64,000 nt of DNA from the human T2T-CHM13v2.0 reference genome, Homo sapiens. Under the pieces are notes generated by a model that was not told the origin of the DNA, searched no databases, and worked only from the letters and a program-made list of their open reading frames with translations. Location: assembly GCF_009914755.1 (NCBI RefSeq), contig NC_060928.1. One strand, written 5' to 3'. Positions 17,042 through 64,000 of this stretch are shown here, in pieces. A program made the position numbers and the translations under genes. Position 1 is the first letter of the stretch; each line of letters opens with the position of its first letter.

Positions 17042-18800
17042 AATAAGAACTGTGAACTCTCAATTGATGAGGAAATATCAACTTGGTGCACTCAAGGACA
17101 TTTACATTATGATGACCATGGGGTTTATGAACATTTATAACTTTTTATAATTTCCATATTACATTTCTCATAGTATGGACAACTTTTTGCCACTAACTGA
17201 ATTCTCCAAATACTCACACGTGAAATTTCAAAAAAGAAGCCACAAATATGTAGTTCTGAAGATGTTGAATAATCATTTTACAAAGCAGTTTTCTGAATGG
17301 GGATTAGTTGGTGATTGTTTGTAACAAATATGCTAATGCTTTAGAAATGTCAGTATTTTTGTAATTATTTCTACCTCCAAATATATATATATTGTCTTTC
17401 ACTGGATAATGTGTGTAGATTTTTACATGTGCCTTATTTGACAATGCTTATGTCTTGTTTTTGCTTGTCTCATTTGAAGTTCTTTTTTATTATGTTAAAG
17501 AATGCAGCTGTATAGATTATATAGCTTTCATTTTATTGCTATTTGAAGCAGATGTTCACCAATGTCAGCAAGAACTCAACCTGAATTTAAAGGTGGCATT
17601 CCATATACTAACATCCCCCAGGTCCTCTCAAGTACTTCTGCTGAAACAAATTTATTTGGCTAGGCACTAAGTTGTTTTCCAGTGAATAGTAACTAAAGAA
17701 GCCCCTACCTTGCTCCATGGATTAATTCCTTCTGTTCATTTTCCAACTGCACTAATTGTGCATATTACTCTGCCTAATCTTGTGCATGTTTTCATTGATT
17801 TCCCTCTCCCGGCTTTTGCTTCTCTTGAAACTGTTGCCCAGTCACTTCTGCTCCAATTCTCTTCCTCTCTAAATAGTAGTTTATTACTGCCACATCTCCA
17901 TGCATCAGCAAAATGTTGGTGACATTTTTCTAGCCTGGCAGAACAGATTACTTAAAGCTATTTCACTTCAAAGCAGACTGAATGTGACTTCATCTAAAGG
18001 CAGCATTAGGTACTGCATGGAAATAGGTCATTAACTTGAAACTCTTATCAAAATATATTTTACCAGTTTCCAGAATTTCCAGTACAGGACCGCCTGAAGA
18101 GAGAGCCATTGTTCAATTCCAATTCAGTGTGAGTGACAAAGTGAAATTTAGAAGTGAAGTTGTCTATTTGATATTTAACTCTTTATTAAATCTTTCTTTA
18201 AATTTCTGCCTGTCAGTCTATATTGCTGTTTTTATTATACATCAGTTTCTTTGTATAACTTGTGAGTTCCATGTGTTTTGTTTTTATTATGTAAATATCA
18301 TTATAAATAAACTTATTTATAAATCAAAGATTTGTTAATTTTTGGAAATCATGCTTTTCAAAGCATCCTAACTTGCTAAGATGCTAGGTAGTACGACCCT
18401 CTGGATTTGGAAGGCAAATAAAACTCTTACAGTGATTATTTAGATATTAAAGACTGAGAACTCACGGCTTAACCCCAGTCTTGATGGTATATTGAACAGA
18501 CTGAATATATTTTACCATTACAGGGCTAAAAGGAGTCTTCGTGTGTTAATACTACCTCCTTGTACATCACTATACCCAAATCAGTTATTCAAATTGTTAG
18601 GAATTTTACCTTTTAAAATCTCATAATGGATATCTCATGTTTTCTGTATTAATGTATTTTCAATGATAGGCTGTTTCTTTTTTTGTTGTTATTGTTGTTG
18701 TTGTTATATCCATACTTTTATCTCTAATGAAATGTAGTTGGGTTCTTCCTGTAATGCGCTATTATGTCTTGGGCTTAATAAAAATATTTGTGATCATAAG
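17042..18800 (+). other. SMARCAD1: SMARCAD1 3'UTR (end approximate)
   Basis: Repeat-free AU-rich sequence after the stop; AATAAA at 18306, 18417 and 18777. Confidence 0.8.
18777..18782 (+). terminator. Likely distal poly(A) signal of SMARCAD1
   Basis: AATAAA followed by CA and a GT/T-rich downstream element. Confidence 0.7.
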
Positions 18801-19889
18801 TTGTATTTTCACACCCTTTTTAATAGTTTCTAACCCTTCCTCCTCCTACCCTTAAAATCATATAATATTGGGCACAAATGAGATTATCTTATGTGCTTAA
18901 TATTGCCTGTTTGCCAGTAAATTGGAACTTACTACTTAGGATGTATTCTCATTGGTTCCTTCATTGGACTGATGTCAGTAAATACTGTAACCCATTATCA
19001 CTACAGAGCAAATGAAGCGAGAGTTGGAGTAATATCTTGACCAACTGAAGCATTTTTTAAATGCAAGCTACACAAAGAAGACATGCCTTATGCATTTTTA
19101 TAACTGTTTGGGACCCCCATAGAGTTTTAACTTTATGCCAGTAGATACTTACTTTGAAACATTACTGTTGTTCCTAACAGTTGGCATTATCGTGTAGTGG
19201 AGAGACGGGGTATGAGGAGATTTGGTTTCCATTTGTGTGACCTTACGTGTGATACTTCACAGTCCATAAATTTAAGGAATTCGGATTGTTTTAACTCTTA
19301 CCAAAAATGTATTTTTGAAATTATAAATTCAATATGCAGTTCACTTTCTGCTTGACTTCACTCTCGCTTAGCCACCCTCTCTTTGTATAGAAGCAAAGAG
19401 ACATTTAATTTGCATACACAATGGGATAATGGAATGTATTGTCCTTTAGCGCAAAAAGATTACCTAAAGGTTATAATAATGCTAAATATTTCCTTATGAA
19501 ACTTGCTGTGGTTATACTTTATACTTGTATTATGATTTGTATAAATAGGATTATCTTATTTTGAATTTTCATAATTTTGTATAAGCATTGGATTATCACT
19601 TTTACTTAGTTCTGTCTTCATTAAAGCTTGATGTGGGGGAAATTTAGCTATGCAGAAGAGTGAAGAAAAGCTAACTACTTTTATTATCTAGAACATTATT
19701 TGCATTTCTTTTGTTAAAGGTAATTTTTCTTCAGATTGCCTGGATTACATGTTGGAGGGTTTTGAATGAGATTCACATACAACCTATTATCATTTACTTA
19801 TAGCAACTAATAACAAGAAAATTTGATCCAAAGAATCAAGGTACTTAGAAAATACACTGTTTTTATGTGTAATCCTTAATAATTTATAT

Positions 19890-20190
19890 TTGTTGTTGTT
19901 GTTGTTGTTGTTTTGAGACAGAGTCCCTCTGTCATGCAGGCTGGAGTGCAGTGGCGTGATCTCGGCTCACAGCAACCTGTGCCTCCCAGTTCAAGTGATT
20001 CTTGTCTCGGCCTCCTGAGTAGCTGGGATTACAGGTGCCCGCCACCACACCCGGCTTATTTTTGTATTTTTAGTAGAGATGGGGTTTCACCATGTTGGCC
20101 AAGTTGGTCTCGAACTCCTGACCTCAAGTGATTCACCCGCCTCGGCCTCCCAAAGGCTGGGATTACAGGCGTGAGCCACTGCGCCCGGCC
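19890..20190 (-). mobile_element. Alu (Sx-like) with (GTT)n-degenerated tail
   Basis: Alu dimer. Confidence 0.92.
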
Positions 20191-20334
20191 TAAAGTATTA
20201 GGTAACTTTTTTTTCAATTTCATAAAACATTGAGAGGAAAGAAACACCTTAAATAAGATCATACCTATCTGGGCTTTTCTTTTCCTCTTCTTTCTTTCTC
20301 CCCAACATCCTCCTCTCTTTTTTGACTTCTTAAT

Positions 20335-20761
20335 TGTGAATAAAGCTTCTGTAAATATATGTGGACAGGTTTTTATGTGGACATGTTTTCAGGTCCTTGA
20401 AATAAATATCAAGGAGCACAATTGCTAGATTGTATGATAAGCATATGTTTAGTTTTATAAGAAATTGTCACTGTCTTCCAAGGTAGCTGTACCATTTGTA
20501 CTCTCATCAGCAACAAATGAGAGTTACCCGTGCTCCACATCCTCGTCAGCGTTTGGTGTTGTCTGCTGTTTTGGATTTTTTACCATTGTGACAGTCATAT
20601 AGTGGTATCTTGTTTTAATTTGCAGTTCCCTAATGACATTTTGTTGGGCACCTCTTCATATGCTTATTGCTACCTGTATCTTTGTTGAGGTGTCTATTGA
20701 GGTCTTTTGCCCATCTTTTGATCAGCTTGTTTGTTGTCTTATTGTTGAGTTTTATGAGTTC

Positions 20762-20762
<1 letters not shown>
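20335..20762 (-). mobile_element. Old L1M 3' fragment interrupted by HERV-H; continues 26106-26190
   Basis: Antisense L1 ORF2-end/3'UTR-like text that reads through once HERV-H and one TSD copy are removed. Confidence 0.75.

Positions 20763-20763
<1 letters not shown>

Positions 20764-20811
<48 letters not shown>
20764..20811. repeat. (TG)24 microsatellite
   Basis: Directly visible perfect dinucleotide run. Confidence 0.98.
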
Positions 20812-20812
<1 letters not shown>

Positions 20813-21204
20813 AACATGGCTGTTTATTCCACCTGGGTGCAGGTGGGCTGAGTCCGAAAAGAGAGTCAGTGAAGGGAGATACGGGTGGGGCCGTTTTATA
20901 GGATTTGGGAAGGTAATGGAAAATTACGGTCAAAGGGGGTTGTTCTCTGGTGGGCAGGGGTGGATCTCACAAAGTACATTCTCAAGGGTGGGGAGAATTA
21001 CAAAGTCCCTTCTTAAGGGTGGGGGAGATTACAAAGTACATTGATCAGTTAGGGTGCGGCAGGAACAAATCACAATGGTGGAGTGTCATCAGTTAAGGCT
21101 GTTTTTACTTCTTTTGTGGATCTTCAGTTACTTTAGGCCATCTGGATGTATACGTGCAAGTCACAGGGGATGCGATGGCCTGGCCTGGGCTCAGAGGCCT
21201 GACA
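20812..21204 (-). mobile_element. LTR7 U3+R (3' LTR lacking U5)
   Basis: Starts TGTCAGGCCTCTGAGCCC at 21204, directly after PPT AAGAAGGCAGGAA (21217-21205); TATAAAA at 20900-20894; AATAAA at 20828-20823. Confidence 0.93.
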
Positions 21205-24200
21205 TTCCTGCCTTCTTATATTAATAAGACAAAACAAAATAGTGTTGAAGTGTTGGGGTGGTGAAAATTTTTGGGGGGTGGTATGGAGAGAGAATGGGTG
21301 ATGTTTCTCAGGGCTGCTTCAAGCGGGATTAGGGGTGGCGTGGGAACCTAGAGTGGGAGAGATTAAGCTGAAGGGAGATCTTGTGGTAAGGGGTGATATT
21401 GTGGGGATGTAAGAAGAAACATTTGTCGTATAGAATGATTGGTGATGGCCTGGATACGGTTTTGGATGAATTGAGAAACAAAATGGAATAAGAGAAGGAG
21501 AAAAACAGGTATAAAAGGTCTAAGAATTGGGAGGACCTAGGACATCTGATGAGAGAGTGCCTAAGGAGATGCAGCATAGTCCTGCCAGCAAAGATTATTT
21601 ATTTACTTCAAGAGTTTAGAGTGGCAGTTTGGGGATAGCACCAGGAGATATCAGCTGTGATGGCTAGGAGAAAGTGTAAACCGGCAGTGTAAACAAGAGC
21701 ACGGCATGCATGAGTAGTTGAGAACGGTGAATAGGAGTATGACTAGACAAAAGATAGTAGGGATGACAAGTTTTTTGGGGGCACAGTCTAAGTTGGTCTG
21801 GTGTCAAATGAGACTGGGGCCTAATAAAAAGGAGCGTCTATACAGGAGCTTAAATGGGCTGTACCTTGTAGCATTCTGAGGACAGGCCTGAATTCTGAGA
21901 AGCAAAAGTGGTAAAAGTATTGTCCAGTCCCTTTTAAGTTGGTGGCTGAGCTTGGTGAGCTGTGTTTTTAAAAGACCTTTAGTCCGTTCTACTTTTCTTG
22001 AAGACGGAGGACCGTAAGGGATATAAAGGTTTCACTGAAACCTACTAAAAGCCTGAAAAACTGCTTGGCTGATTTGACTAATAAAGGCTGGTCCGTCATC
22101 AGACTGTATAGAGGTGGGAAGGCTAAACTGAGGAATTATGTTTGACAGAAGGAAAGAAATGACTGCGGTGGCCTTCTCAGACCCTGTAGGAAAGGCCTTT
22201 ACTTATTCAGTGAAAGTGTCTATTTGGACTAAGAGGTATTTTAGTTTCCTGACTCGGGCATGTTGAGTAAAACTAATTTGCCAGTCCTGGGTGGGGCAAA
22301 TCCTCGAGCTTGATGTGTAGGGAAGGGAGGGGGCCTGAATAATCCCTGAGGAGTAGTAGAATAGCAGATGGAACACTGAGAAGTTATTTCCTTGAGGATA
22401 GATTTCCACGATGGAAAGGAAATGAGAGGTTCTAAGAGGCGGGCTAGTGGCTTGTACTATAGCATAGCCTGCCTTTGCTGGTATGCGGCGATTAGGCCTG
22501 GTGGAACTGCCATCAATAAATCAAGCGTGATCAGGGTGAGGAACAGGAAAGAAGGAAATATGGGGAAATGGGGTGAATATCAGGTGGATCAGAGAGATAC
22601 AGTCATGGGGGTCAGGTGTGGTATCAGGAATAATGTGGGAGGCCGGATTGAAGTCCGGGCCAGAAACAATGGTAATTGTGGGACTTAAAGAGTAAGTACA
22701 GCTGAAGGAGCCGGGGAGCAGAAAGTATATGCGTCAGGTATGAGGAAGAAAATAGATTTTGGAAGTTATGAGAAATGTAGAGAGTGAGTTGAGCATAGTT
22801 TGTGATTTTTAGGGCCTCTAAAAGTATTAAAGCAGCGGCAGCCGCTGCACGCAGACATGAGGGCTAGGCTAAAACAGTAAGGTCAAGTTGTTTGGACAGA
22901 AAGGCTACAGGGTGCAGTCCTGGCTCTTGTGTAAGAATTCTGACCGCACTAACCATGCCTAGGAAGGAAAGGAGTTGTTGTTTTGTAAGGGATTGAGGTT
23001 TGAGAGATTAATCGGACATGATCAGCAGGGAAAGCACGTGTGTTTTTATGAGAATTATGCCGAGATTAGGTAACAGATGAGGATGAAATTTGGGCTTGAC
23101 TGAAGTAATGGGGGCTGTCTGTGAAGCCTTGCGGCAGTACAGCCCAGGTAATTTGCTGAGTCAGGGTCAAAGTGAAAGCAAAGAGAGGCTGGGATGAAGG
23201 GTGCAAAGGAATAGTAAAGAAAGCACGTTTGAGATCTAGAACAGAATAATGGGTAGTAGAGGGAGGTATTGAGGATAGGAGAATATATGGGTTTGGCACC
23301 ACGGGGTGGATAGGCAAAACAATTTGGTTGATAAGGTGCAGATTCTGAACTAACTTGTAAGCCTTGTCTGGTTTTAGGACAGGTAAAATGGGGGAATGGT
23401 AAGGAGAGTTTATAGGCTTTAAAAGGTCATGCTGTAGCAGGCAAGTGATAACAGGCTTTAATCCTTTTAAAGCATGCTTTGGGATGGGATCTTGACATTG
23501 AGCGGGGTAAGGGTGATTAGGTTTTAATGAGATGGGAAGGGGTGCATGATCGGTCGCCAAGGAGGGAGTAGAGGTATCTTATACTTGTGGGTTAAGGTGG
23601 GGGGATATAAGAGGAGGAAACAAAGGAGGCTTTGGATTGGGAAGAAGGGCAGCAATGAGATGTAGCTGTAGTCCAGGAATAGTCAGGGAAGCAGATAATT
23701 TAAAGTGTCTCAGCCTAATAAGGGAACTGGGCAGGTGGGGATAACTAAAAAGGAGTGCTTAAAAGAGTATTGTCTAAGTTGGCACCAGAGTTGGGGAGTT
23801 TTAAGAGGTTTAGAAGCCTGGCCGTCAATACCCACAACAGTTATGGAGGCAAGGGAAACAGGCCCTTGAAAAGAAGGTAATGTGGAGTGGGTAGCCTCCA
23901 TATTGATTAAGAAGGGGACGGACTTACCTTCCACTGTGAGAGTTACCCAAAGCTCGGGGTCCGTGATGGTCTACGGGGCTTCCGAGGCGATCGGGCAGCA
24001 TCAGTCTTCAGCCGCTAAGCCGAGAAGGAGTCAGTCAGAGAGCCTTGGGCCAGAGTTCCAGGGGCTCTGGGAGTGGCTGCCAGGTGAGTTGAACAGTCCA
24101 ATTTCCAGTGGGGTCCCGCACAGATGGGACATGTCTTAGGAGGAATCCTGGGCTGCAGGCATTCCTTGGCCTAGTGGTCAGATTTCTGGCACTTGTAGCA

Positions 24201-25260
24201 AGCTCCTGTGGGAGGAGGTTCTGGAGGAACGCCTGTCCGCTGCAGTTCAGGCGTTTGGAAGTTCTTGTGTGCTGGAGATGTGGCTGGGGTTTGTCTCACA
24301 GTGGAGGCCAGGAATTGCAACTTTTTTCTATTATTGTACACCTTGAAGGCGAGGTTAATTAAATCCTGTTGTGGGGTTTGAGGGCCAGAATTTAATTTTT
24401 GGAGTTTTATTTAATGTCGGGAGCAGATTGGGTAATACAATGTATATTGAGAATAAGATAGCCTTTTGACATTTTAGGGTCTAGGGCTGTAAAGCGTCTC
24501 AGGGTTGCTGCCGAACGAGCCATGAACTGGGCTGGGTTTTTATATTTGATGAAAAAGCCTAAACACTATCTGATTTGGGATAAAGAAAAAGGAGCATTAA
24601 CCTTGACTATGCCTTTAGCTCCAGCCACCTTTTTAAGAATAAATTGCTGGGCAGGTGGGGGAGGGCTAGTCACAGAACGAAACTGTAAGCCAGACCAGGT
24701 GTGAGGAGGGGAGGCGATAAAAAGATTATAGGGTGGAGGAGTGGAGGCTGAGGAAGAATTGGGACCTAGCTTGGCCTGGCTAGGAGGGGAGAGGTCAGAT
24801 GGGTCTGTAGAAAAGGAAGATTAGAAAGACTCAGCGACGCTTGGCGTTGGGACTGAGGGGACAGGCAGGAGATTTGGGACGAGTTGCATTGGGCACAGAG
24901 ACTAGGAATGGACTGATGTGTAAAAGAATGCCTGGATGTCAGGCACCTCAGACCATTTGCCCATTTTACGACAGGAATTATTTAGATCTTGTAGGACGGA
25001 AAAATTGAAAGTGCCGTTTTCCGGCTATTTGGAACTACTGTCGAGTTTGTATTGGGGTCAAGCAACATTGCAGAAGAAAATAAGACACTTAGATTTTAGG
25101 TCAGGTGAGAGTTGAAGAGGTTTTAAGTTCTTAAGAATACAGGCTAAGGGAGAAGAAGGAGGAATGGAGGTGGAAGCTTGCCCATAGTGAAGGAGGCAAG
25201 CCCAGAGAAAAGAGAGCGTAGAGACACGGAGGGAAGGGGTTTGGGGGTTCTTGCCCCCTA

Positions 25261-25459
25261 GAAAAGCAGGACTTGCCGCTAAGGGTGAAGGAGAAGGGGT
25301 TGAGGGGTACTTGCCCCTGCCCCAGGAAAGCGGAACTTGCCGCTAAGCGTGAAGGAGAAGGGGTTGAGGGGTACTTGCCCCTGCCCCAGGAAAGCGGGAC
25401 TTGCCGCTAAGGGTGAAGGAGAAGGGGTTGAGGGGTACTTGCCCCTGCCCCAGGAAAGC
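25261..25459. repeat. 64-bp tandem repeat, about 3 copies, in the HERV-H leader
   Basis: ACTTGCCGCTAAG recurs at 25271, 25335, 25399 (and 25524). Confidence 0.9.
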
Positions 25460-25961
25460 AGAGAAGGGGTAGAGACAAGGAGAGAAGGGGTTGGGGTACT
25501 TGCCCCTTCCCCAGAAAAGCGGGACTTGCCGCTAAGGGTGAAGGACCAAGGCAGGCGTCCCTGCGTGGTCTGACACCCTTGATACATGGGTGTATAATCA
25601 GAGAGGCGTCCCTGCATTGATTAAACACCAAGGGAAGGCTGCCTTCCCAGTCCGTGACCGGCGCCGGAGTTTTGGGTCCACGGATAAAACGTGTCTCTTT
25701 TGTCTCTACCAGAAAATGAAAGGAATTGAAATTAAGAGAAGGGAGAGATTGAAGTGTAGCGCCAAGATTGAAAGGAGAAAGAGGTTGAGGGATAGTGAGG
25801 GAAGTTGGAGAAGAGAGTAAAAAGAGGCCGCTTACCGGATTTGAAATTGGTGTGATGTTTCTTGGGCTGGGCGGTCTGAGGACCTGAGGTCATAGGTGGA
25901 TCTTTCTCACGGAGCAAAGAGCAGGAGGACAGGGGATTGATCTCCCAAGGGAGGTCCCCCA

Positions 25962-25979
25962 ATCCGAGTCACGGCACCA
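25962..25979 (-). promoter_or_regulatory. HERV-H primer binding site (tRNA-His)
   Basis: TGGTGCCGTGACTCGGAT, complementary to the tRNA-His 3' end. Confidence 0.93.
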
Positions 25980-25981
25980 AA

Positions 25982-26088
25982 TTTCATACGCGTCCGTGTG
26001 AAGAGACCACCAAACAGGCTTTGTGTGAGCAACGTGGCTGTTTATTTCACCTGGGTGCAGGTGGGCTGAGTCCGAAAAGAGAGTCAGC
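25982..26088 (-). mobile_element. LTR7 R+U5 only (5' LTR lacking U3)
   Basis: Begins GCTGACTCTCTTTTCGG, ends ...GCGTATGAAA just before the PBS. Confidence 0.93.
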
Positions 26089-26997
26089 CGAGTTTTATGA
26101 GTTCTATATAATTTTGAATAATAGTCTTTTGTCAGATACATGTTTTGCAAGTATTTTCTCCAAGTCTGTGGCTTGTCTTCTCCTTCTCTTGATCTCTGGG
26201 GTATCTACATTTTTCTCATCACAACAACTTTATTCATGTCAGTAAATTCATCTTTACAAGTTTCTCTGGCTGCATATCTAGAGCCTTTTGAGCCGTGTCA
26301 GATTCCCACAGTCAGCTCTTTTCTCGATAACTCTTTATATTCAGTTTGAATTTCATTCCAGGATTATCAGTTTTTGTTCCTTTGCTGCACTTTCATCTTT
26401 GTTGGGGAGTTCCCTCTTTTGATTCATTTTTGTAAAATGTCAAAGGGATTTATCACTGGGCCACAAGCAGGCAATAGCAATACAACTACACACTTTGCTA
26501 TCTATGCAGGAATAACAGATGTGCAGTGACCTCTGGCAGTCTTTGATAGAAGTGACTGGTCATTGGTCATGATGTACATAGGTTATTTACACAGCGATAT
26601 GTGAACTGGAGAGCTACTAGCAAAGTTTGTGTTTTATGCAATTACAGGTAATTGTGGTAGCTGAAGTCCAAAACATTTTGGGGGAGGGGAAGAATGGTGT
26701 TGCTAAACCATTATGACTGCAATTCGTGCATGTTAGAACCTGTGCAAAGCAAGGTCTGCCTGTATTACATACTATTTTTCTGTAATTGTAAATGATGAGA
26801 AGCTATTCTGAAAGAAAAAGATACTGAAGAAAGATTTGTTTTTATTTTCCTTTTTAAAAATCAGAATATGGCTAAAGTGAAAATCTTAGTGGAGCTGGGG
26901 AGGGAGCATGTGGATTATCTGGCAGGCTGATGTAGCTGTCTTATCTGATGAGAGAGATGCCCCCGAGAAAAACAAACTTGAAGGCAACATGGATCAG
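26025..26997 (-). other. HPGDS: HPGDS 3'UTR with candidate poly(A) signals at 26846-26841, 26234-26229 and 26046-26041 (last one inside HERV-H R)
   Basis: tttatt on + strand at these positions downstream of the stop codon; the true end is inferred. Confidence 0.65.
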
Positions 26998-27162
26998 CTA
27001 GAGTTTGGTTTGGGGCCTTCGTTTTATCCAGTTAGCGACGGCAGGAATGGCTTGGACTTTCTTCCGTAAAGTCACCAGCCTTGGATGGTTGTCTAACAGG
27101 TCAGGCTTAAAGACCAAAAGTGTGGTACTGCAAATCTCCCAGTAGAAGTCTGCCCAAGTTAC
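26998..27162 (-). CDS. HPGDS: HPGDS last coding segment, VTWADFYWEICSTTLLVFKPDLLDNHPRLVTLRKKVQAIPAVANWIKRRPQTKL-stop
   Basis: 165 nt; the five exons sum to 600 nt = 199 aa + TAG. Confidence 0.97.
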   Translation of the reverse strand, partial: VTWADFYWEICSTTLLVFKPDLLDNHPRLVTLRKKVQAIPAVANWIKRRPQTKL

Positions 27163-28099
27163 CTAGTTTAAAGGAAACAAACTTTTCATTTGAACATAGA
27201 AAGTGTAGCTGTATCAGCATTCCAAAATTGAAATTAGTTTCTTAATCTAAAAGATTCAAAACAATCTTGTTATTACAAAAGCAGAATGTTTATATGATAG
27301 AAGTTCAGAAAATTACTGATATCACACTCCAGCAATCAGGTTACTACTATTAAACATTTTCGTGTATAAGATATTTTTCTATGCTGATAGATGTTGTTTT
27401 ACTAACATGAGATCTTAATGGTACATACTCTTGTAACCTTGTCCAGTCTCCACCTCTCTGTGACAATACATTTTCCTTATCCAATAACCAATACGTATTT
27501 TTCCATCTGTTCTAAAATTGCCCTTTACAGGACAAAGCAGGATCTATTCCAGGTCTATGCATTTGATCTGCTTATGTCCATTAACTCTTCAAAGCAGTAC
27601 CCTTTTTTTCACATCACCAAATTATTGAAGATTTCACACTAGTCCTACAGAATGTTCTATCTTCAGGACCTTTGTATTTCATCTTACCTTGTTCCTTTGT
27701 ACTACGTAGTATAAAGGAAGGTGCAGGTTACTCTTAGAGGGTATATAATTTCAAGTGAAATATTTGTGGCTAAAATACATTATATTGTATCACATAAAAA
27801 GAATATATGGATGTCTGACCATTAGGGGTATGCCAAGATTGGCCACTGGATTAGTGATGACAGCCTGGTCCTACCATTGTACAGTTGTATGTTTTTATCT
27901 TTGTGTTAGAAACTAATCTGTATGCTGTTACTTTGGCTCCATATGATTATCAAAGAGTGAAGTTTAAATGTGGCCCACTCTTTTTTCTTTTTGTATAGAA
28001 TTTAATAAAGCTGATTGCTAGTGCCTCAGGAACTTATTAAACATCTGTCAGCCAAGAGAAGCTACTGGCTGGAAGACTCAGAATTCAGAATAAATCCAG

Positions 28100-36639: not shown

Positions 36640-42793
<6,154 letters not shown>

Positions 42794-47262: not shown

Positions 47263-47277
47263 TCTCCCTCATTTTTG

Positions 47278-50200
47278 TATTATACTTTAAGTTCTAGGGT
47301 ACATGTGCACAATGTGCAGGTTTGTTACATAGGTATACATGTGCCATGTTGGTGTGCTGCACCCATTAACTCATCATTTACATTAGGTATATCTCCTAAT
47401 ACTATCCCTCCCCTCTACCCCCACCCTGCAACAGGCCCCAGTGTGTGATGTTCCCCATCCTGTGTCCAAGTGTTCTCATTGTTCAGTTCCCACCTATGAG
47501 TGAGAACATGCAGTGTTTGGTTTTCTGTCCTTGAGATAGTTTGCTCAGAATGATGGTTTCCAGCTTCATCCATGTCCCTACAAAGGACATGAACTCATCC
47601 TTTTTTATGGCTGCATAGTATTCCATGGTATATATGTACTACATTTTCTTAATCCTGTCTAACACTGATGGACATTTGGGTTGGTTCCAAGTCTTTACTA
47701 TTGTTAATAGTGCTGCAATAAACATACATGTGCATGTGTCTTTATGGGAGCATGATTTATAATCCTTTGGGTATATGCCCAGTAATGGGATCACTGGGTC
47801 AAATGGTATTTCTATATCTAGATCCTTGAGGAATCACCACACTGTCTTCCACAATGGTTGAACTAGTTTACAGTCCCACCAACAGTGTAAAAGTGTTCCT
47901 ATTTCTCCACACCCTCTCCAGCACCTGTTGTTTCCTGACTTTTTAATGATCGCCATTCTAACTGGTGTGAGATGGTATCTCACCATGGTTTTGATTTGCA
48001 TTTCTGTGATGACCAGTGATGACGAGCATTTTTTCATGTGTCTGTTGACTGCATAAATGTCTTTTTTTGAGAAGTGTCTGTTCATATCCTTCGCCCACTT
48101 TTTGATGGGGTTGTTTGATTTTTTCTTGTAAATTTGTTTAAGTTCTTTGTAGATTCTGGATATTAGCCATTTGTCAGATGGATAGATTGCAAAATTTTTC
48201 TCCCATTCTGCAGGTTGCCTGTTCACTCTAATGGTAGTTTCTTTTACTGTGCAGAAGCTCCTTAGTTTAATTAGATCCCATTTGTCAATTTTGGCTTTTG
48301 TTGCCATTGCTTTTGGTGTTTTAGTCATGAAGTCCTTGCCCATGCCTATGTCCTGAATGGTATTGCCTAGGTTTTCTTCTAGGGTTTTTATGGTTTTAGG
48401 TCTGACATTGAAGTCTTTAATCCATCTTGAATGAATTTTTGTATAAGGTGTAAGGAAGGGATCCAGTTTCAGCTTTCTCCATATGGCTAGCCAGTTTTCC
48501 CAGCACCATTTATTAAATAGGGAATCCTTCCCCCATTTCTTGTTTTTGTCAGGTTTGTCAAAGATCAGATGGTTGTAGATGTGTGGTATTATTTCTGAGG
48601 CCTCTGTTCTGTTCCATTGGTCTATATCTCTGTTTTGGTACCAGTACCATGCTGTTTTGGTTACTGTAGGCTTGTAGTATAGTTTGAAGTCAGGTAGCAT
48701 GATGTCTCCAGCTTTGTTCTTTTTGCTTAGGATTGACTTGGCAATGCAGGCTCTTTTTTGGTTCCATATGAACTTTAAAGTAGTTTTTTCCAATTCTGTG
48801 AAGAAAGTCACTTGTAGGTGGCTGGGGATGGCATTGAATCTATAAATTACCTTGGGCAGTATGGCCATTTTCACGATATTGATTCTTCCTACCCATGAGC
48901 ATGGAATGTTCTTCCATTTGTTTGTATCCTCTTTTATTTTGTTGAGCAGTGGTTTGTAGTTCTCCTTGAAGAGGTCCTTCACATCCCTTTTAAGTTGGAT
49001 TCCTAGGTATTTTATTCTCTTTGAAGCAATTGTGAATGGGAGTTAATTCATGATTTGGCTCTCTGTTTGTCTGTTATTGGTGTATAGCAATGCTTGTGAT
49101 TTTTGTACATTGATTTTGTATCCTGAGACTTTGTTGAAGTTGCTTATCAGCTTAAGGAGATTTTGGGCTGAGATGATGGGGTTTTCTAAATATACAATCA
49201 TGTCATCTGAAAACAGGGACAATTTGACTTCCTCTCTTCCTAATTGAATAACCTTTATTTCTTTCTCTTGCCTGATTGCTCTTGTCAGAACTTCCAACAC
49301 TATGTTGAATAGGAGTGGTGTGAGAGGGCATCCCTGTCTTGTGCCAGTTTTCAAAGGGAATGCTTCCAGTTTTTGCCCATTCAGTATGATATTGGCTGTG
49401 GGTTTGTCATAAATAGCTCTTATTATTTTGAGATACATCCCATCAATACCTAATTTATTGAGAGTTTTTAGCATGAAGGGCTGTTGAATTTTGTTGAAGG
49501 CCTTTTCTGCATCTATTGAGACGATCATGTGGTTTTTGTCTTTGGTTCTGTTAAGGTGATGGATTACATTTATTGATTTGCATATGTTGAACGAGCTTTG
49601 CATCCCAGGAATGAAGCCAGCTTGATCTTGGTGGATAAGGTTTTTGATGTGTTGCTGGATTCGGTTTGCCAGTATTTTATTGAGGATTTTCCCATCGATG
49701 TTCATCAGGGATATTGGTCTAAAATTCTCTTTTTTTTGTGTCTCTGCCAGGCTTTGGTATCAGGGTGATGCTGGCCTCATAAAATGAGTTAGGGAGGACT
49801 CCCTCTTTTTCTATTGATTGGAATAGTTTCAGAAGGAATGGTACCAGCTCCTCCTTGTATCTCTGGTAGAATTCAGCTGTGAATCCACCTGGTCCTGGAC
49901 TTTTTTTGGTTGGTAGGCTATTAATTATTGCCTCAATTTCAGATCCTGTTATTGGTCTATTCAGGGATTCAACTTCTTCCTGGTTTATTTTGGGGAAGGT
50001 GTATGTGTCCAGCAATTTATCCAGTTCTTCTAGATTTTCTAGTTTATTTGTGTAGAGGTGTTTATAGTATTCTCTGATGGTAGTTTGTATTTCTGTGGGA
50101 TCGGTGGTGATATCCCCTTTATCATTTTTCATTGCATCTATTTGATTCTTCTCTCTTTTCTTCTTTATTAGTCTTGCTAGCAGTCTATCAATTTTGTTGA

Positions 50201-53200
50201 TCTTTTCAAAAAATAAGCTCCTGGGTTCGCTGATTTTTTGAAGGGTTTTTTGTATCTCTGTCTCCTTCAGTTCTGTTCTGATCTTACTTATTTCTTGCCT
50301 TCTGCTAGCTTTTGAATGTGTTTGCTCTTGCTTCTCTAGTTCTCTTAATTGGGATGTTAGGGTGTCAATTTCAGATCTTTTCTGCTTTCTCTTGTGGGCA
50401 TTTAGTGCTATAAATTTCCCTGTACACACTGCTTTAAATGTATCCCAGAGATTCTGGTACATTGTGTCTTTGTTCTCATTGGTTTCAAAGAATATGTTTA
50501 TTTCTGCCTTCATTTCGTTATGTACCCAGTAGTCATTCAGGAGCAGGTTGTTCAGTTTCCATGTATTTGTGTGGTTTTGAGTGAGTTTCTTAATCCTGAG
50601 TTCTAGTTTGATTGCACTGTGGTCTGAGAGACAGTTTGTTGTGATTTCTGTTCTTTTACATTTGCTGAGGAGTGCTTTACTTCCAACTATGTGGTCAATT
50701 TTGGAATAAGTGTGGTGTGGTGCTGAGAAGAATGTATATTCTGTTGATTTGGGGTGGAGAGTTCTGTAGTTGTCTGTTAGGTCTGCTTGTGCAGAGCTGG
50801 CTTTAAGTCCTGGACATCATTGTTAACCTTCTTTCTCATTGATCTGTCTAATATTGACATTGAGGTGTTAAAGTCTCCCATTATTATTGTGTGGGAGCCT
50901 AAGTCTCTTTGTAGGTCTCTAAGGACTTGGTTTATGAATCTGGATGCTCCTCTACCAGGTGCATATATATTTAGGATAGTTAGCTCTTCTTGTTGAATTG
51001 ATCCCTTTACCATTATGTAATGGCCTTCTTTATCTCTTTTGATTTAAGTTGGTTTAAAGTCTGTTTTATCAGAGAGTAGGATTGCAACCCCTCCTTTTTT
51101 TTTGTTTTCCATTTGCTTGGTAGATCTTCCTCCATCCCTTTATTTTGAGCCTATGTGTGTCTCTGCACTTGAGATGGGTCTCCTGAATACAGCACACTGA
51201 TGGGTCTTGAGTCTTTATCCAGTTTGCCAGTCTGTGTCTTTTAATTGGAGCATTTAGGCCATTTACATTTAAGGTTAATATTGTTATGTGTGAATTTGAT
51301 CCAGTCATTATATTAGCTGGTTATTTTGCCCATTAGTTGATGCAGTTTCTTCCTTGCATTGATGGTCTTTACAATTTGGCATGTTTTTGCAGGGGCTGGT
51401 ACCGGTTGTTTCTTTCCATGTTTAGTGCTTCCTTCAGGAGCTCTTGTAAGCAGACCTGGTATTGACAAAATCTCTCAGCATTTGCTTCTCTGTGAAGGAT
51501 TTTATTTCTCCTTCACTTATGAAGCTTAGTTTGGCAGGATATGAAATTCTGGGTTGAAAATTGTTTTATTTAAGCATGTTGAATATTGGCCCCCACTCTC
51601 TTCTGGCTTGTAGAGTTTCTGCTGAGAGATCAGCTGTTAGTCTGATGGGCTTCCCTTTGTGGGTAACCTGACCTTTCTCTCTGGTTGCCCTTAACATTTT
51701 TTCCTTCATTTCAACCTTGGTGAATCTGACGATTACATGTCTTGGAGTTGTTCTTCTCAAGGAATGTCTTTGTGGTGTTCTCTGTATTTCCTGAATTTGC
51801 ATGTTGGCCTGTCTTGCTAGGTTGGGGAAGTTCTCCTGGATAATATACTGGAGTGTTTTCCAGCTTGGTTCCATTCTCCCCATCATGTTTAGGTATACCA
51901 ATCAAATGTAGATCTGGTCTTTTCACATAGTCGCATGTTTCTTGGAGACTTTGTTCATTTCTTTTTACTCTTTTCTCTCTAAACTTCTCTTCTCACTTCA
52001 TTTCATTAATTTGATCTTCAATCACTGATACCCTTTCTTCCACTTGATCAAATCGGCTACTGAAGCTTGTGCACGCATCATGATGTTCTCATCCCATGGT
52101 TTTCAGCTCCATCAAGTCATTTAAGGTCTTCTCTACACTGTTTATTCTAATTAACCATTCGTCTAATCTTTTTTCAAGGTTTCAGCTTCCTTGTGATGGG
52201 TTCAAACATCCTCCTTTAGCTCAGAGAAGTTTGTTACTACCGACCTTCTGAAGCCTACTTATGTCAACTCGTCAAAGTCATTCTCCATCCAGCTTGTTCC
52301 ATTGCTCGCAAGGAGCTGCGATCCTTTGGACAAGAAGGGGTGTTCTGATTTTTAGAATTTTCAGCTTTTCTGCTCTGGTTTCTCCCCATCTTTGTTGTTT
52401 TATCTACCTTTGGTCTTTGATGATGGTGACCTACAGATTGGGTTTTGGTGTGGATGTCCTTTTTGTTGATGTTGATGCTATTCCTTTCTGTTTGTTAGTT
52501 TTCCTTCTAACAGTCAGGTCCCTCAGCTGCAGGTCTGCTGGAGTTTGCTGGAGGTCCACTCCAGACCCTGTTTGCCATTATATCACCAGCGGAGGCTGCA
52601 GAACAGCAAATATTGCAGAACAGCAAATACTGCTGCCTGATCCTTCCTCTGGAAGCTTCATCTCAGAGGGACACCCAGCTGTATGAGGTGTCAGTCAGCC
52701 CCTACTGGGAGCTATCTCCCAGTTAGGCTACTCGGGGGTCAGGGACCCAGTTGAGGAGGCACTCTGTCCATTCTCAGAACTCAAACACCATGCTGGGAGA
52801 ACCACTGCTCTCTTCAGAGCTGTCAGACAGGGACGTTTAAGTCTGCAGAAGTTTCTGCTGCCTTTTGTTCAGCTATGCACTGCCCCCAGAGGTGGAGTCT
52901 ACAGAGGCAGGTAGGCCTTCTTGAGCTGCAGTAGGCTCCACCCAGTTCAAGCTTCCCAGCCGCTTTGTTTACCTACTCAAGCCTCAGCCATGGCAGACAC
53001 CCCTCCCCCAGCTAGGCTGCCGCCTTGCAGTTCGATCTCAAACTGCTGCACAAGCAGTGAGCAAGGCTCCGTGGGCATGGGACCCACTGAGCCAGGCGTG
53101 GGATATAATCTCCTGTTGTGCCATTTGCTAAGACCATTGGAAAAACGCAGTATTTGGGTGGCAGTGTCCCAATTTTCCAGATACAGTCTGTCATGGCTTC

Positions 53201-63754: not shown

Positions 63755-64000
63755 TTAAACACGAATCATAAAAATCTAGCTTGCCAAGTCTTGACTTTAA
63801 GTTTATATATTCCTGGAGTCTAGTGGGAAGAGGATGACCTGGAAATAACTGGTTGCCTATCTAGAAGCTCCCAGGTTCAGGAAGTGACGGTGATGGTAAT
63901 TCCTAGCAAAACCATTTTTTCTGGCCCTGGCTTCTGTGTCCAGATGTTGTGGAGTGAAGCTGGTGCTCCTTGCTAAAACGAGAGAGCTACTGCCAATCAT

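What the first reader, a model, noticed from the sequence alone, without database searches (positions are those of the whole stretch)
26020..26997. HPGDS probably polyadenylates inside the R region of the HERV-H retrocopy
Seen: the HPGDS stop (26998) lies about 910 nt from the 5' end of the same-strand HERV-H. The first about 65 nt of the element carry AATAAA (26046-26041), a CA cleavage context and the U5 GT-rich downstream element (GTTTGGTGGTCTCTT). This is a complete poly(A) cassette, whereas the 3' LTR lacks U5. Two host AATAAAs lie upstream (26841, 26229). My recollection that the annotated HPGDS end is about 7 kb from the SMARCAD1 end fits this site but is unverified. Inference: a lineage-specific distal 3'UTR isoform of an allergy/mast-cell gene terminates at an exapted retroviral signal, which may also limit read-through toward the convergent SMARCAD1.
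Basis: partly seen in the sequence, partly recalled or inferred. Interest (0 to 1): 0.75.

Follow-up and report, generated by a model that had tools for sequence, protein, structure and literature searches.

The report
HPGDS mRNA ends inside HERV-H retrocopy
The last exon of the prostaglandin D synthase gene HPGDS runs into a promoterless, LINE-1-copied HERV-H element whose intact retroviral poly(A) signal most likely ends the long mRNA form, an ordinary and already reported kind of retroviral co-option.

Summary
The sequence observation holds. A same-strand HERV-H copy (26089-20763) lies 909 nt past the HPGDS stop codon. It starts at the first base of R, has no 5' U3 and no 3' U5, and ends in R plus (CA)n. 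A perfect 16-nt target duplication flanks it, so it is an L1-type processed retrocopy. Its 5' R-U5 carries AATAAA (26046-26041), CA dinucleotides (26027-26024) and a GU-rich element (26015-26001). None of these differs from 29 other LTR7 copies.

In 23 of 23 other genomic loci where this LTR7 R motif is followed by poly(A), the tail begins 13-17 nt after the hexamer. That predicts cleavage at 26028-26024.

RefSeq ends HPGDS at 26053. That is inside R but 7 nt before the hexamer, so the annotated end is not itself a product of the signal. It is probably about 27 nt short, which is unproven.

A 2026 Science Advances paper using nanopore direct RNA reads names HPGDS as an example of ERVs acting as splice or transcript end sites. 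HERV-H LTR poly(A) co-option has been known since HHLA2/HHLA3. Novelty is therefore low.

Side result: HERV-H processed pseudogenes form a class of at least 23 loci.

The parts
26998..27000 (-). HPGDS stop codon TAG
   Evidence: hub annotation (coding part ends at 26998)
26768..26997 (-). Single-copy proximal 3'UTR holding host AATAAA no. 1 (26846-26841), which has a U-rich downstream stretch
   Evidence: (only the self hit for query 1 to about 395)
26090..26767 (-). Distal 3'UTR built from old dispersed repeats. It holds host AATAAA no. 2 (26234-26229). The last ~100 nt look like L1 ORF2 sequence; that name is recalled and was not confirmed by Pfam.
   Evidence: 67-87% matches at many loci; 1705 first-look candidates; no Pfam hit
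26090..26105 (-). 5' target-site duplication AGAACTCATAAAACTC
   Evidence: family D7: 16/16 identical to 20747-20762
26024..26089 (-). One extra G (26089) followed by the HERV-H R region (26088-26024). No U3 lies upstream.
   Evidence: (D3: 66 nt, 95% to the 3' R)
26053..26053 (-). RefSeq NM_014485.3 3' end. It lies 36 nt into R, 7 nt before the hexamer, and at the loop/3' arm of a small predicted hairpin.
   Evidence: hub annotation
26041..26046 (-). Retroviral AATAAA, unpaired in the predicted fold
   Evidence: 0 of 29 LTR7 copies differ here
26024..26028 (-). Predicted cleavage zone (GCTCACA), +13 to +17 from the hexamer
   Evidence: 23 of 23 listed loci have poly(A) starting at the matching bases
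26001..26015 (-). U5 GU-rich downstream element GTTTGGTGGTCTCTT
   Evidence: 0 of 29 copies differ
25962..25979 (-). Primer-binding site TGGTGCCGTGACTCGGAT (the assignment to tRNA-His is recalled)
25831..25837 (-). Splice-donor-like CG|GTAAG, the position of the HERV-H major donor, ~190 nt beyond the cleavage zone
   Evidence: role inferred
21205..25961 (-). HERV-H leader and interior, 89-96% identical to other genomic copies
20811..21204 (-). 3' LTR: U3 (TGTCAGG at 21204, TATAAAA at 20900-20894) and R (from 20869, AATAAA at 20828-20823). No U5.
20763..20810 (-). (CA)n plus AA in the place of the poly(A) tail
20747..20762 (-). 3' target-site duplication
   Evidence: D7

Best explanation
The HPGDS terminal exon reads through about 230 nt of single-copy 3'UTR and about 680 nt of old interspersed repeats. 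It then enters, in sense, a promoterless processed pseudogene of HERV-H RNA (R-U5-interior-U3-R-tail, 16-nt target duplication) that LINE-1 machinery inserted there. The retrocopy starts with R-U5, so the first thing a read-in polymerase meets is the family's complete poly(A) signal: AAUAAA, CA, then the GU-rich U5 element. Transcripts that pass the two host AAUAAA sites are cleaved there, most likely after 26026 or 26024. This gives the roughly 975-nt 3'UTR form that RefSeq represents, with an annotated end about 27 nt short.

Shown: the anatomy, the intactness of the signal, the family's cleavage position, the annotated end lying inside R, and a published statement naming HPGDS as an example of ERVs acting as splice or transcript end sites.

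Inferred: the exact cleavage position in HPGDS mRNA and that the hexamer is the signal used.
For: Retrocopy anatomy comes (D3 for the R duplicate, D7 for the 16/16 target duplication).

R-U5 is 98-99% identical to the other 39 of 40 scored LTR7 copies. In 29 copies compared base by base, none differs in the hexamer, the CA zone or the GU-rich element. The one base private to this copy is 26034, which differs from 26 of 29 copies.

In one search, 23 of 23 distinct listed loci with the R hexamer context followed by A12 have the tail starting at +13 to +17. Thirteen start after GCTCAC(A), five after GCTC(A), and five are variants. The pattern allowed roughly +9 to +39.

In one search, 0 loci have a tail starting upstream of the hexamer, within 24 nt after TTTTCGGACTCAGCC.

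Only three AATAAA and no ATTAAA lie in the UTR. A transcript that reaches 26053 has passed both host sites and is 7 nt from the third. The hexamer is unpaired in the predicted fold.

[quoted passage not shown] The large intronic repeats in the window are L1s, not ERVs, so this HERV-H is the only candidate seen in the window.
Against: The only 3' end coordinate available, RefSeq 26053, lies 7 nt before the hexamer and about 27 nt before the predicted cleavage. I could not explain why.

Figure 5F of the paper is not held, so neither the ERV's identity nor the read ends could be seen. The paper's wording also allows a splice-site role.

The retrocopy junctions report use of the signal in a U3-R-U5 (3' LTR) context in germline or embryonic cells. 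They do not report use of R-U5 behind an L1 fragment in mast cells or microglia.

The same signal is naturally bypassed in HERV-H's own 5' LTR. An intact donor-like GGTAAG about 190 nt downstream could damp it, by analogy with HIV-1 (recalled).

Host site 1 has a strong U-rich downstream region and may take most transcripts.
Confidence: 0.6

Rival explanations
1. The RefSeq end at 26053 (…CACCC|A) is a true cleavage site driven by a non-canonical upstream signal. The retroviral hexamer is not used, and HERV-H only contributes the last 37 nt of the mRNA.
For: The annotation gives 26053. The next base is A, so a CA-type cleavage with the tail trimmed would read this way. CATAAA lies at 26099-26094.
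Against: That hexamer lies 41-46 nt upstream of 26053, which is far for a poly(A) signal. No AATAAA or ATTAAA lies within 175 nt upstream. No retrocopy in the genome has a tail starting in this part of R (0 matches). A canonical, family-proven signal lies 7 nt further on.
Confidence: 0.12
2. Most HPGDS mRNA ends at the host signals, above all AATAAA 26846-26841 in single-copy sequence. The HERV-H site is then only a minor backstop with little effect on the gene.
For: Site 1 lies in the unique part of the UTR. It has 50% U in +10..+50 and a U-rich upstream stretch. Proximal sites are commonly used.
Against: RefSeq's selected transcript carries the 945-nt UTR. The 2026 paper noticed HPGDS reads at the ERV. 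Site 2 has a poor downstream region beyond +10, with 12.5% U. No usage data could be seen either way.
Confidence: 0.3
3. HPGDS transcripts largely read through the 5' R-U5 signal. They then splice from the HERV-H donor (25836|25835) or end at the 3' R hexamer (20828-20823) or beyond. On this reading the ERV acts as a splice or alternative terminal exon source rather than through its 5' cassette.
For: [quoted passage not shown] The donor-like GGTAAG is intact. The 5' LTR signal is bypassed in normal HERV-H transcription (established knowledge, recalled).
Against: The 3' R hexamer is followed by (CA)n with 0% U in +10..+50, a poor signal. RefSeq lists no exon inside the element. Read-in transcripts are not cap-proximal at the 5' R.
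Confidence: 0.12

Closest known systems
HERV-H LTR as primary poly(A) signal of cellular genes (HHLA2, HHLA3; Mager et al. 1999 Genomics 59:255). Seen here only as a title in the reference list of PMC1794541; its content is recalled.
   Same: A sense-oriented LTR7 R/U5 signal ends a host gene's mRNA. It is primate-specific, uses the same hexamer context, and produces a 3'UTR made partly of retroviral sequence.
   Different: Here the donor is not a solitary or proviral LTR. It is the U3-less 5' end of an L1-made processed pseudogene. Use of the hexamer itself is inferred, not shown by a mapped 3' end.
HPGDS as an example of ERVs acting as splice or transcript end sites (Sci Adv 2026, PMC13537272; bioRxiv 10.1101/2025.09.03.673956). 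Passages and the figure legend were read; the figure is not held.
   Same: Same gene and same claim at the coarse level, based on nanopore direct RNA reads from human putamen.
   Different: The text names no ERV family, no coordinates and no signal. It does not note that the element is a promoterless retrocopy, and it treats it among 'up-regulated ERVs'.
HERV-W processed pseudogenes made by LINE-1 (Grandi et al. 2016, PMC5016936; Grandi & Tramontano 2017, PMC5537654, abstract and passages read; Pavlicek et al. 2002 recalled, not held)
   Same: The structure is R-U5-interior-U3-R-tail. There is no 5' U3 and no 3' U5, the target duplications are long, and some copies are 5'-truncated.
   Different: The family is HERV-H, not W. 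[quoted passage not shown]
Regulation of the retroviral 5' LTR poly(A) site: promoter proximity and U1 snRNP at the major splice donor, as in HIV-1 (recalled textbook knowledge, no call)
   Same: The hexamer lies in R and so is present at both ends of the RNA. A strong donor lies about 190 nt downstream of the 5' site.
   Different: Nothing was tested for HERV-H here. For a read-in host transcript the site is not cap-proximal, so occlusion should be weaker.

Membership tests
Host gene polyadenylated at a HERV-H (LTR7) R/U5 signal | LTR7 R-U5 in sense orientation within or at the end of the terminal exon | tested here: met
   98-99% identity to LTR7 copies, same strand as HPGDS. The annotated exon ends at 26053, inside R.
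Host gene polyadenylated at a HERV-H (LTR7) R/U5 signal | Intact AAUAAA, cleavage CA and GU-rich downstream element | tested here: met
   In one search, 0 of 29 copies differ at these positions.
Host gene polyadenylated at a HERV-H (LTR7) R/U5 signal | mRNA 3' ends mapping 10-30 nt downstream of the LTR hexamer | tested here: inconclusive
   The RefSeq end lies 7 nt upstream of the hexamer. The paper's figure is not held. No 3'-end database is available here.
L1-mediated processed pseudogene of a retroviral RNA | 5' end at the transcription start (R) with no U3 | tested here: met
   The element starts G+GCTGACTC. In the 3' LTR the same bases lie about 31 nt after TATAAAA. The sequence upstream is the target duplication and host repeat.
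L1-mediated processed pseudogene of a retroviral RNA | 3' end at the R cleavage site followed by a poly(A) tail, with no U5 | tested here: met
   R ends ...AATAAACAGCCATGTTGC. It is followed by (CA)n plus AA rather than pure A, read as a decayed tail. That last reading is inference.
L1-mediated processed pseudogene of a retroviral RNA | Target-site duplication of about 7-20 nt, far longer than an integrase makes | tested here: met
   D7: 16/16 nt.
L1-mediated processed pseudogene of a retroviral RNA | L1 endonuclease target TT|AAAA at the start of the duplication | tested here: inconclusive
   AT|AGAA, which matches 4 of 6 positions of the recalled consensus.
Ordinary HERV-H provirus (integrase-mediated) | Two complete LTRs (U3-R-U5) and a short target duplication | tested here: not met
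   no 5' U3, no 3' U5, 16-nt duplication.

The most novel reading that the evidence does not exclude
The U3-less R-U5 stub of an L1-mobilised HERV-H pseudogene became the main terminator of HPGDS in Old World primates. This lengthened its 3'UTR from about 170 nt to about 975 nt of mostly transposon-derived sequence. The element also belongs to an overlooked class of at least 23 HERV-H processed pseudogenes, which contradicts the printed view that HERV-W is the only HERV group mobilised by L1. A corollary follows: 'HERV-H activation' reported at this locus is read-through from HPGDS and not ERV promoter activity, because the copy has no 5' promoter.
Probability: 0.3. Interest if true: 0.45.

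Novelty: already known. Interest (0 to 1): 0.27.

Why it matters
HPGDS is a marker and drug target in mast cells, Th2 and ILC2 cells, tuft cells and microglia. Where its mRNA ends decides which 3'UTR regulatory sequence it carries. It also affects how 3'-tag single-cell reads are assigned.

Three practical points follow.

1. The annotated end is probably about 27 nt short. The true end lies in sequence 98-99% identical to other LTR7 copies, of which 40 were scored out of 1679 first-look candidates. Short 3'-end reads will therefore multi-map and be dropped.

2. The element has no 5' promoter. RNA-seq signal on this 'ERV' should be read as HPGDS transcription.

3. The retrocopy junctions give a base-precise map of the LTR7 cleavage site that can be used for any LTR7-terminated transcript.

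As biology, the event is one more case of a well-known kind of co-option.

Tried and rejected
**HPGDS processed pseudogene.** I searched the genome for one, because its tail would have shown the poly(A) site used. None was found. Window 27162 to about 26768 has only its self hit.

**Naming the host repeat around the insertion as L1.** Pfam gave no significant hit on three stop-free peptides. The L1 label for 26193-26090 and 20762-20400 therefore rests on recall and on its dispersed copies.

**Rfam.** No family reached its gathering score in 18000-27500.

**RNA fold of 26110-25990.** The fold shows two small hairpins before the hexamer, with z = -1.61. That is not distinctive, and I draw nothing from it beyond the hexamer being unpaired.

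**Another ERV in the paper's figure.** I considered that the paper's ERV might be a different, intronic element. The two large intronic repeats, 36646-42145 and 47272-52781, are L1s with ORF1 and ORF2 domains. The part of the gene beyond base 64000 was not examined.

**Literature.**
- HPGDS with HERV-H gave 2 papers, of which 1 was relevant.
- HPGDS, polyadenylation and LTR7 gave no paper holding HPGDS together with LTR7 among the 20 of 83 papers listed.
- HPGDS with alternative polyadenylation gave 2 papers, judged unrelated from title and abstract only.
- HPGDS with HERVH gave 0 papers.
- HPGDS with endogenous retrovirus gave 9 papers, 8 listed, with 1 relevant. One other, PMC11642334, was opened and was incidental. 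The remaining six were judged from their listings only.
- The supplement of PMC13537272 that is held as text has no HPGDS, HERVH or chr4 entry.
- Three older papers, tried by ids I recalled, are not held.

Full report
**1. Observation**

All coordinates are on the minus strand, the HPGDS sense strand. The stop codon TAG is at 27000-26998. Between it and 25800 there are exactly three AATAAA hexamers, at 26846-26841, 26234-26229 and 26046-26041. None of the other twelve hexamer variants scanned lies in a better position, and there is no ATTAAA.

After the third hexamer comes CAGCCACGTTGCTCACACAAAGCC, and then GTTTGGTGGTCTCTT at 26015-26001. The GU-rich element lies just behind, not within, the first 65 nt of the element.

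The hub's table puts the HPGDS end at 26053 and the SMARCAD1 end at 18799.

**2. What the element is**

- The stretch 26089-25990 is 98-99% identical to the other 39 of 40 scored hits in the window's own genome, from 1679 first-look candidates. It is therefore ordinary LTR7 R-U5.
- The interior, 25950-21300, is 89-96% identical to other HERV-H copies. The best full-length non-self match is 94%, and the best partial matches are 96%.
- The 5' end has no U3. Upstream of 26089 lies host sequence.
- The 3' LTR starts with TGTCAGG at 21204 and carries TATAAAA at 20900-20894. The bases CTGACTCTC that open the 5' end recur at 20869, about 31 nt after the TATA box. That is the expected transcription start.
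- The 3' R stops at ...AATAAACAGCCATGTTGC. It is followed by a (CA) run (20810-20765) and AA, not by U5.
- A perfect 16-nt direct repeat, AGAACTCATAAAACTC, flanks the whole element at 26105-26090 and 20762-20747 (D7).
- The two R copies match at 95% over 66 nt (D3).
- The element opens with GG. In 24 of 24 aligned LTR7 copies the second G is templated. The first G aligned in only 6 of 29 copies. An extra 5' G is what a reverse-transcribed cap leaves; that link is recalled knowledge.

Together these features fit a LINE-1-type processed pseudogene of a full-length HERV-H RNA, not a provirus. It has no 5' promoter.

**3. The host UTR**

The first ~230 nt after the stop are single-copy in the genome. 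From about 26766 to 26090 the UTR matches many dispersed loci at 67-87% identity, so it is built from old repeats.

The peptides readable on both sides of the insertion look like L1 ORF2 to me, but Pfam did not confirm this. Host AATAAA no. 1 lies in the unique part and has a U-rich downstream region. No. 2 has GU only in the first 14 nt downstream.

**4. Where the family's signal cuts**

I searched the genome for the R hexamer context followed 4-34 nt later by A12. There were 17 forward matches and 98 overlapping reverse matches. The pattern read backwards, as a control, gave 0.

The listed rows contain 23 distinct loci:
- In 13 the tail follows ...GCTCAC(A).
- In 5 it follows ...GCTC(A).
- In 5 it follows one-base variants of these.

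All 23 tails start at +13 to +17 from the hexamer, although the pattern allowed roughly +9 to +39. Transferred to the window, this is 26028-26024.

A control pattern asked for a tail within 24 nt after TTTTCGGACTCAGCC, that is, upstream of the hexamer and including the equivalent of 26053. It found nothing.

In 29 LTR7 copies compared base by base with the window, none differs in the hexamer, the CA zone or the GU-rich element. Only 26034 is private to this copy, differing from 26 of 29.

**5. Does HPGDS use it?**

The annotated end, 26053, is inside R but 7 nt before the hexamer, so it cannot be a product of that hexamer. The nearest upstream hexamer variant, CATAAA at 26099-26094, lies 41-46 nt away.

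A transcript that reaches 26053 has passed both host signals. It then meets a family-proven signal 7 nt further on. The simplest reading is that the reference transcript is about 27 nt short. I could not find out why it stops there, and I leave that unexplained.

One inference bears on this. A short 3'-end read from 26024 would lie wholly within R and would multi-map, which could hide the site in tag-based data.

Independent support comes from PMC13537272 and its preprint (passages and the Fig. 5 legend read). [quoted passage not shown] The figure is not held, and the held supplement has no matching entry. I therefore could not see the ERV's name or the read ends.

Within the window, the other large repeats in HPGDS are two sense-oriented L1s, not ERVs. 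The ERV meant is therefore very probably this one.

**6. Mechanism and caveats**

A read-in polymerase meets AAUAAA 44 nt into the element, with the hexamer unpaired in the predicted fold (z = -1.61, not distinctive). CPSF and CstF would bind the hexamer and the U5 GU-rich element, and cleavage would follow at CA. That step is inferred from established knowledge.

Three caveats apply:
- The retrocopy junctions report use of the signal behind U3, not behind host sequence.
- HERV-H's own transcripts bypass this same 5' site.
- An intact donor-like CG|GTAAG at 25836|25835 could damp it, as in HIV-1 (recalled).

The 3' R hexamer (20828-20823) is followed by (CA)n with no U, so it is a poor second signal. 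The suggested protection of SMARCAD1 is untested. What can be said is that the insertion itself added 5327 nt plus the 16-nt target duplication to the 7254 nt that separate the two gene ends.

**7. Comparison and novelty**

HERV-H LTRs giving poly(A) signals to host genes have been known since HHLA2/HHLA3. I saw that work only as a reference title in PMC1794541. The same paper discusses sense-oriented LTR poly(A) signals terminating gene transcripts.

The gene-specific claim is in print at a coarse level (PMC13537272), and the annotation already ends the gene inside the repeat. What is added here:
- the signal donor is the U3-less stub of a processed pseudogene;
- the predicted cleavage bases;
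- the mismatch with the annotated end;
- the corollary that RNA signal on this 'ERV' is HPGDS read-through.

My other searches linking HPGDS to HERV-H, LTR7 or polyadenylation found nothing further.

**8. Side result**

The loci are themselves HERV-H retrocopies.

Nine of 9 checked have LTR7-type U3 upstream, at 85-97% identity to the window's 3' LTR over 295-404 aligned nt.

Six were examined at both ends. Four are full-length and start at the same (G)GCTGACTC with no U3:
- C2:199.73M has a 14/14 target duplication.
- C5:12.43M has about 13 nt with 1 mismatch.
- C11:81.06M has a duplication-like match with an indel.
- C10:110.45M has a 16/16 duplication.

Two are 5'-truncated, at about 3 kb and about 0.4 kb, with 9-13-nt candidate duplications.

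[quoted passage not shown] Three searches found no paper naming HERV-H processed pseudogenes. The subscription literature could not be searched.

**Verdict**

The kind of event is ordinary and the case is already reported. Interest is low to moderate.

Noticed in passing
Own genome: L031-L060 and L064-L070 (e.g. G000:C2:199.73M, C5:12.43M, C10:110.45M, C11:81.06M, C9:47.59M, C4:145.68M): HERV-H processed pseudogenes form a class. At least 23 distinct loci have LTR7 U3-R followed directly by poly(A). All 6 loci examined at both ends fit L1-type retrotransposition: four are full-length with U3-less R starts and two are 5'-truncated; duplications are clear in four (13-16 nt), an indel-interrupted match in one and a 9-nt candidate in one. 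A 2017 review calls HERV-W the sole HERV group mobilised by L1, and three searches found no paper naming such HERV-H copies.
   Followed up: partly
window 26053: The RefSeq 3' end of HPGDS lies 7 nt before the only nearby AATAAA, with no usual signal within 40 nt upstream. It falls at the loop/3' arm of a small predicted hairpin (CACCUG-CACC-CAGGUG). The reason for this end is unexplained.
   Followed up: partly
window 36646-42145 and 47272-52781, minus strand: Two roughly 5.5-kb L1 elements, about 86-96% identical to each other block by block, lie in HPGDS introns in sense orientation. The copy at 36646-42145, the only one scanned, keeps recognisable ORF1 (Transposase_22 and related domains), endonuclease and reverse-transcriptase domains in stop-interrupted frames.
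   Followed up: partly
window 20765-20810, minus strand: A (CA)23-like microsatellite sits exactly where the retrocopy's poly(A) tail should be. It is probably a tail that evolved into a dinucleotide repeat.
   Followed up: no
L036, L050, L053, L069 (own genome): Some retrocopies carry a different U3 end (…CCTATAAGAACTAATGATAATCC… before the R start) from the TATAAAACGG type seen in the window. More than one LTR7 subfamily was therefore retrocopied.
   Followed up: no
window 26034: The only base of the R-U5 cassette private to this copy is C, where 26 of 29 other LTR7 copies differ. It lies between the hexamer and the cleavage zone and creates a CpG.
   Followed up: no
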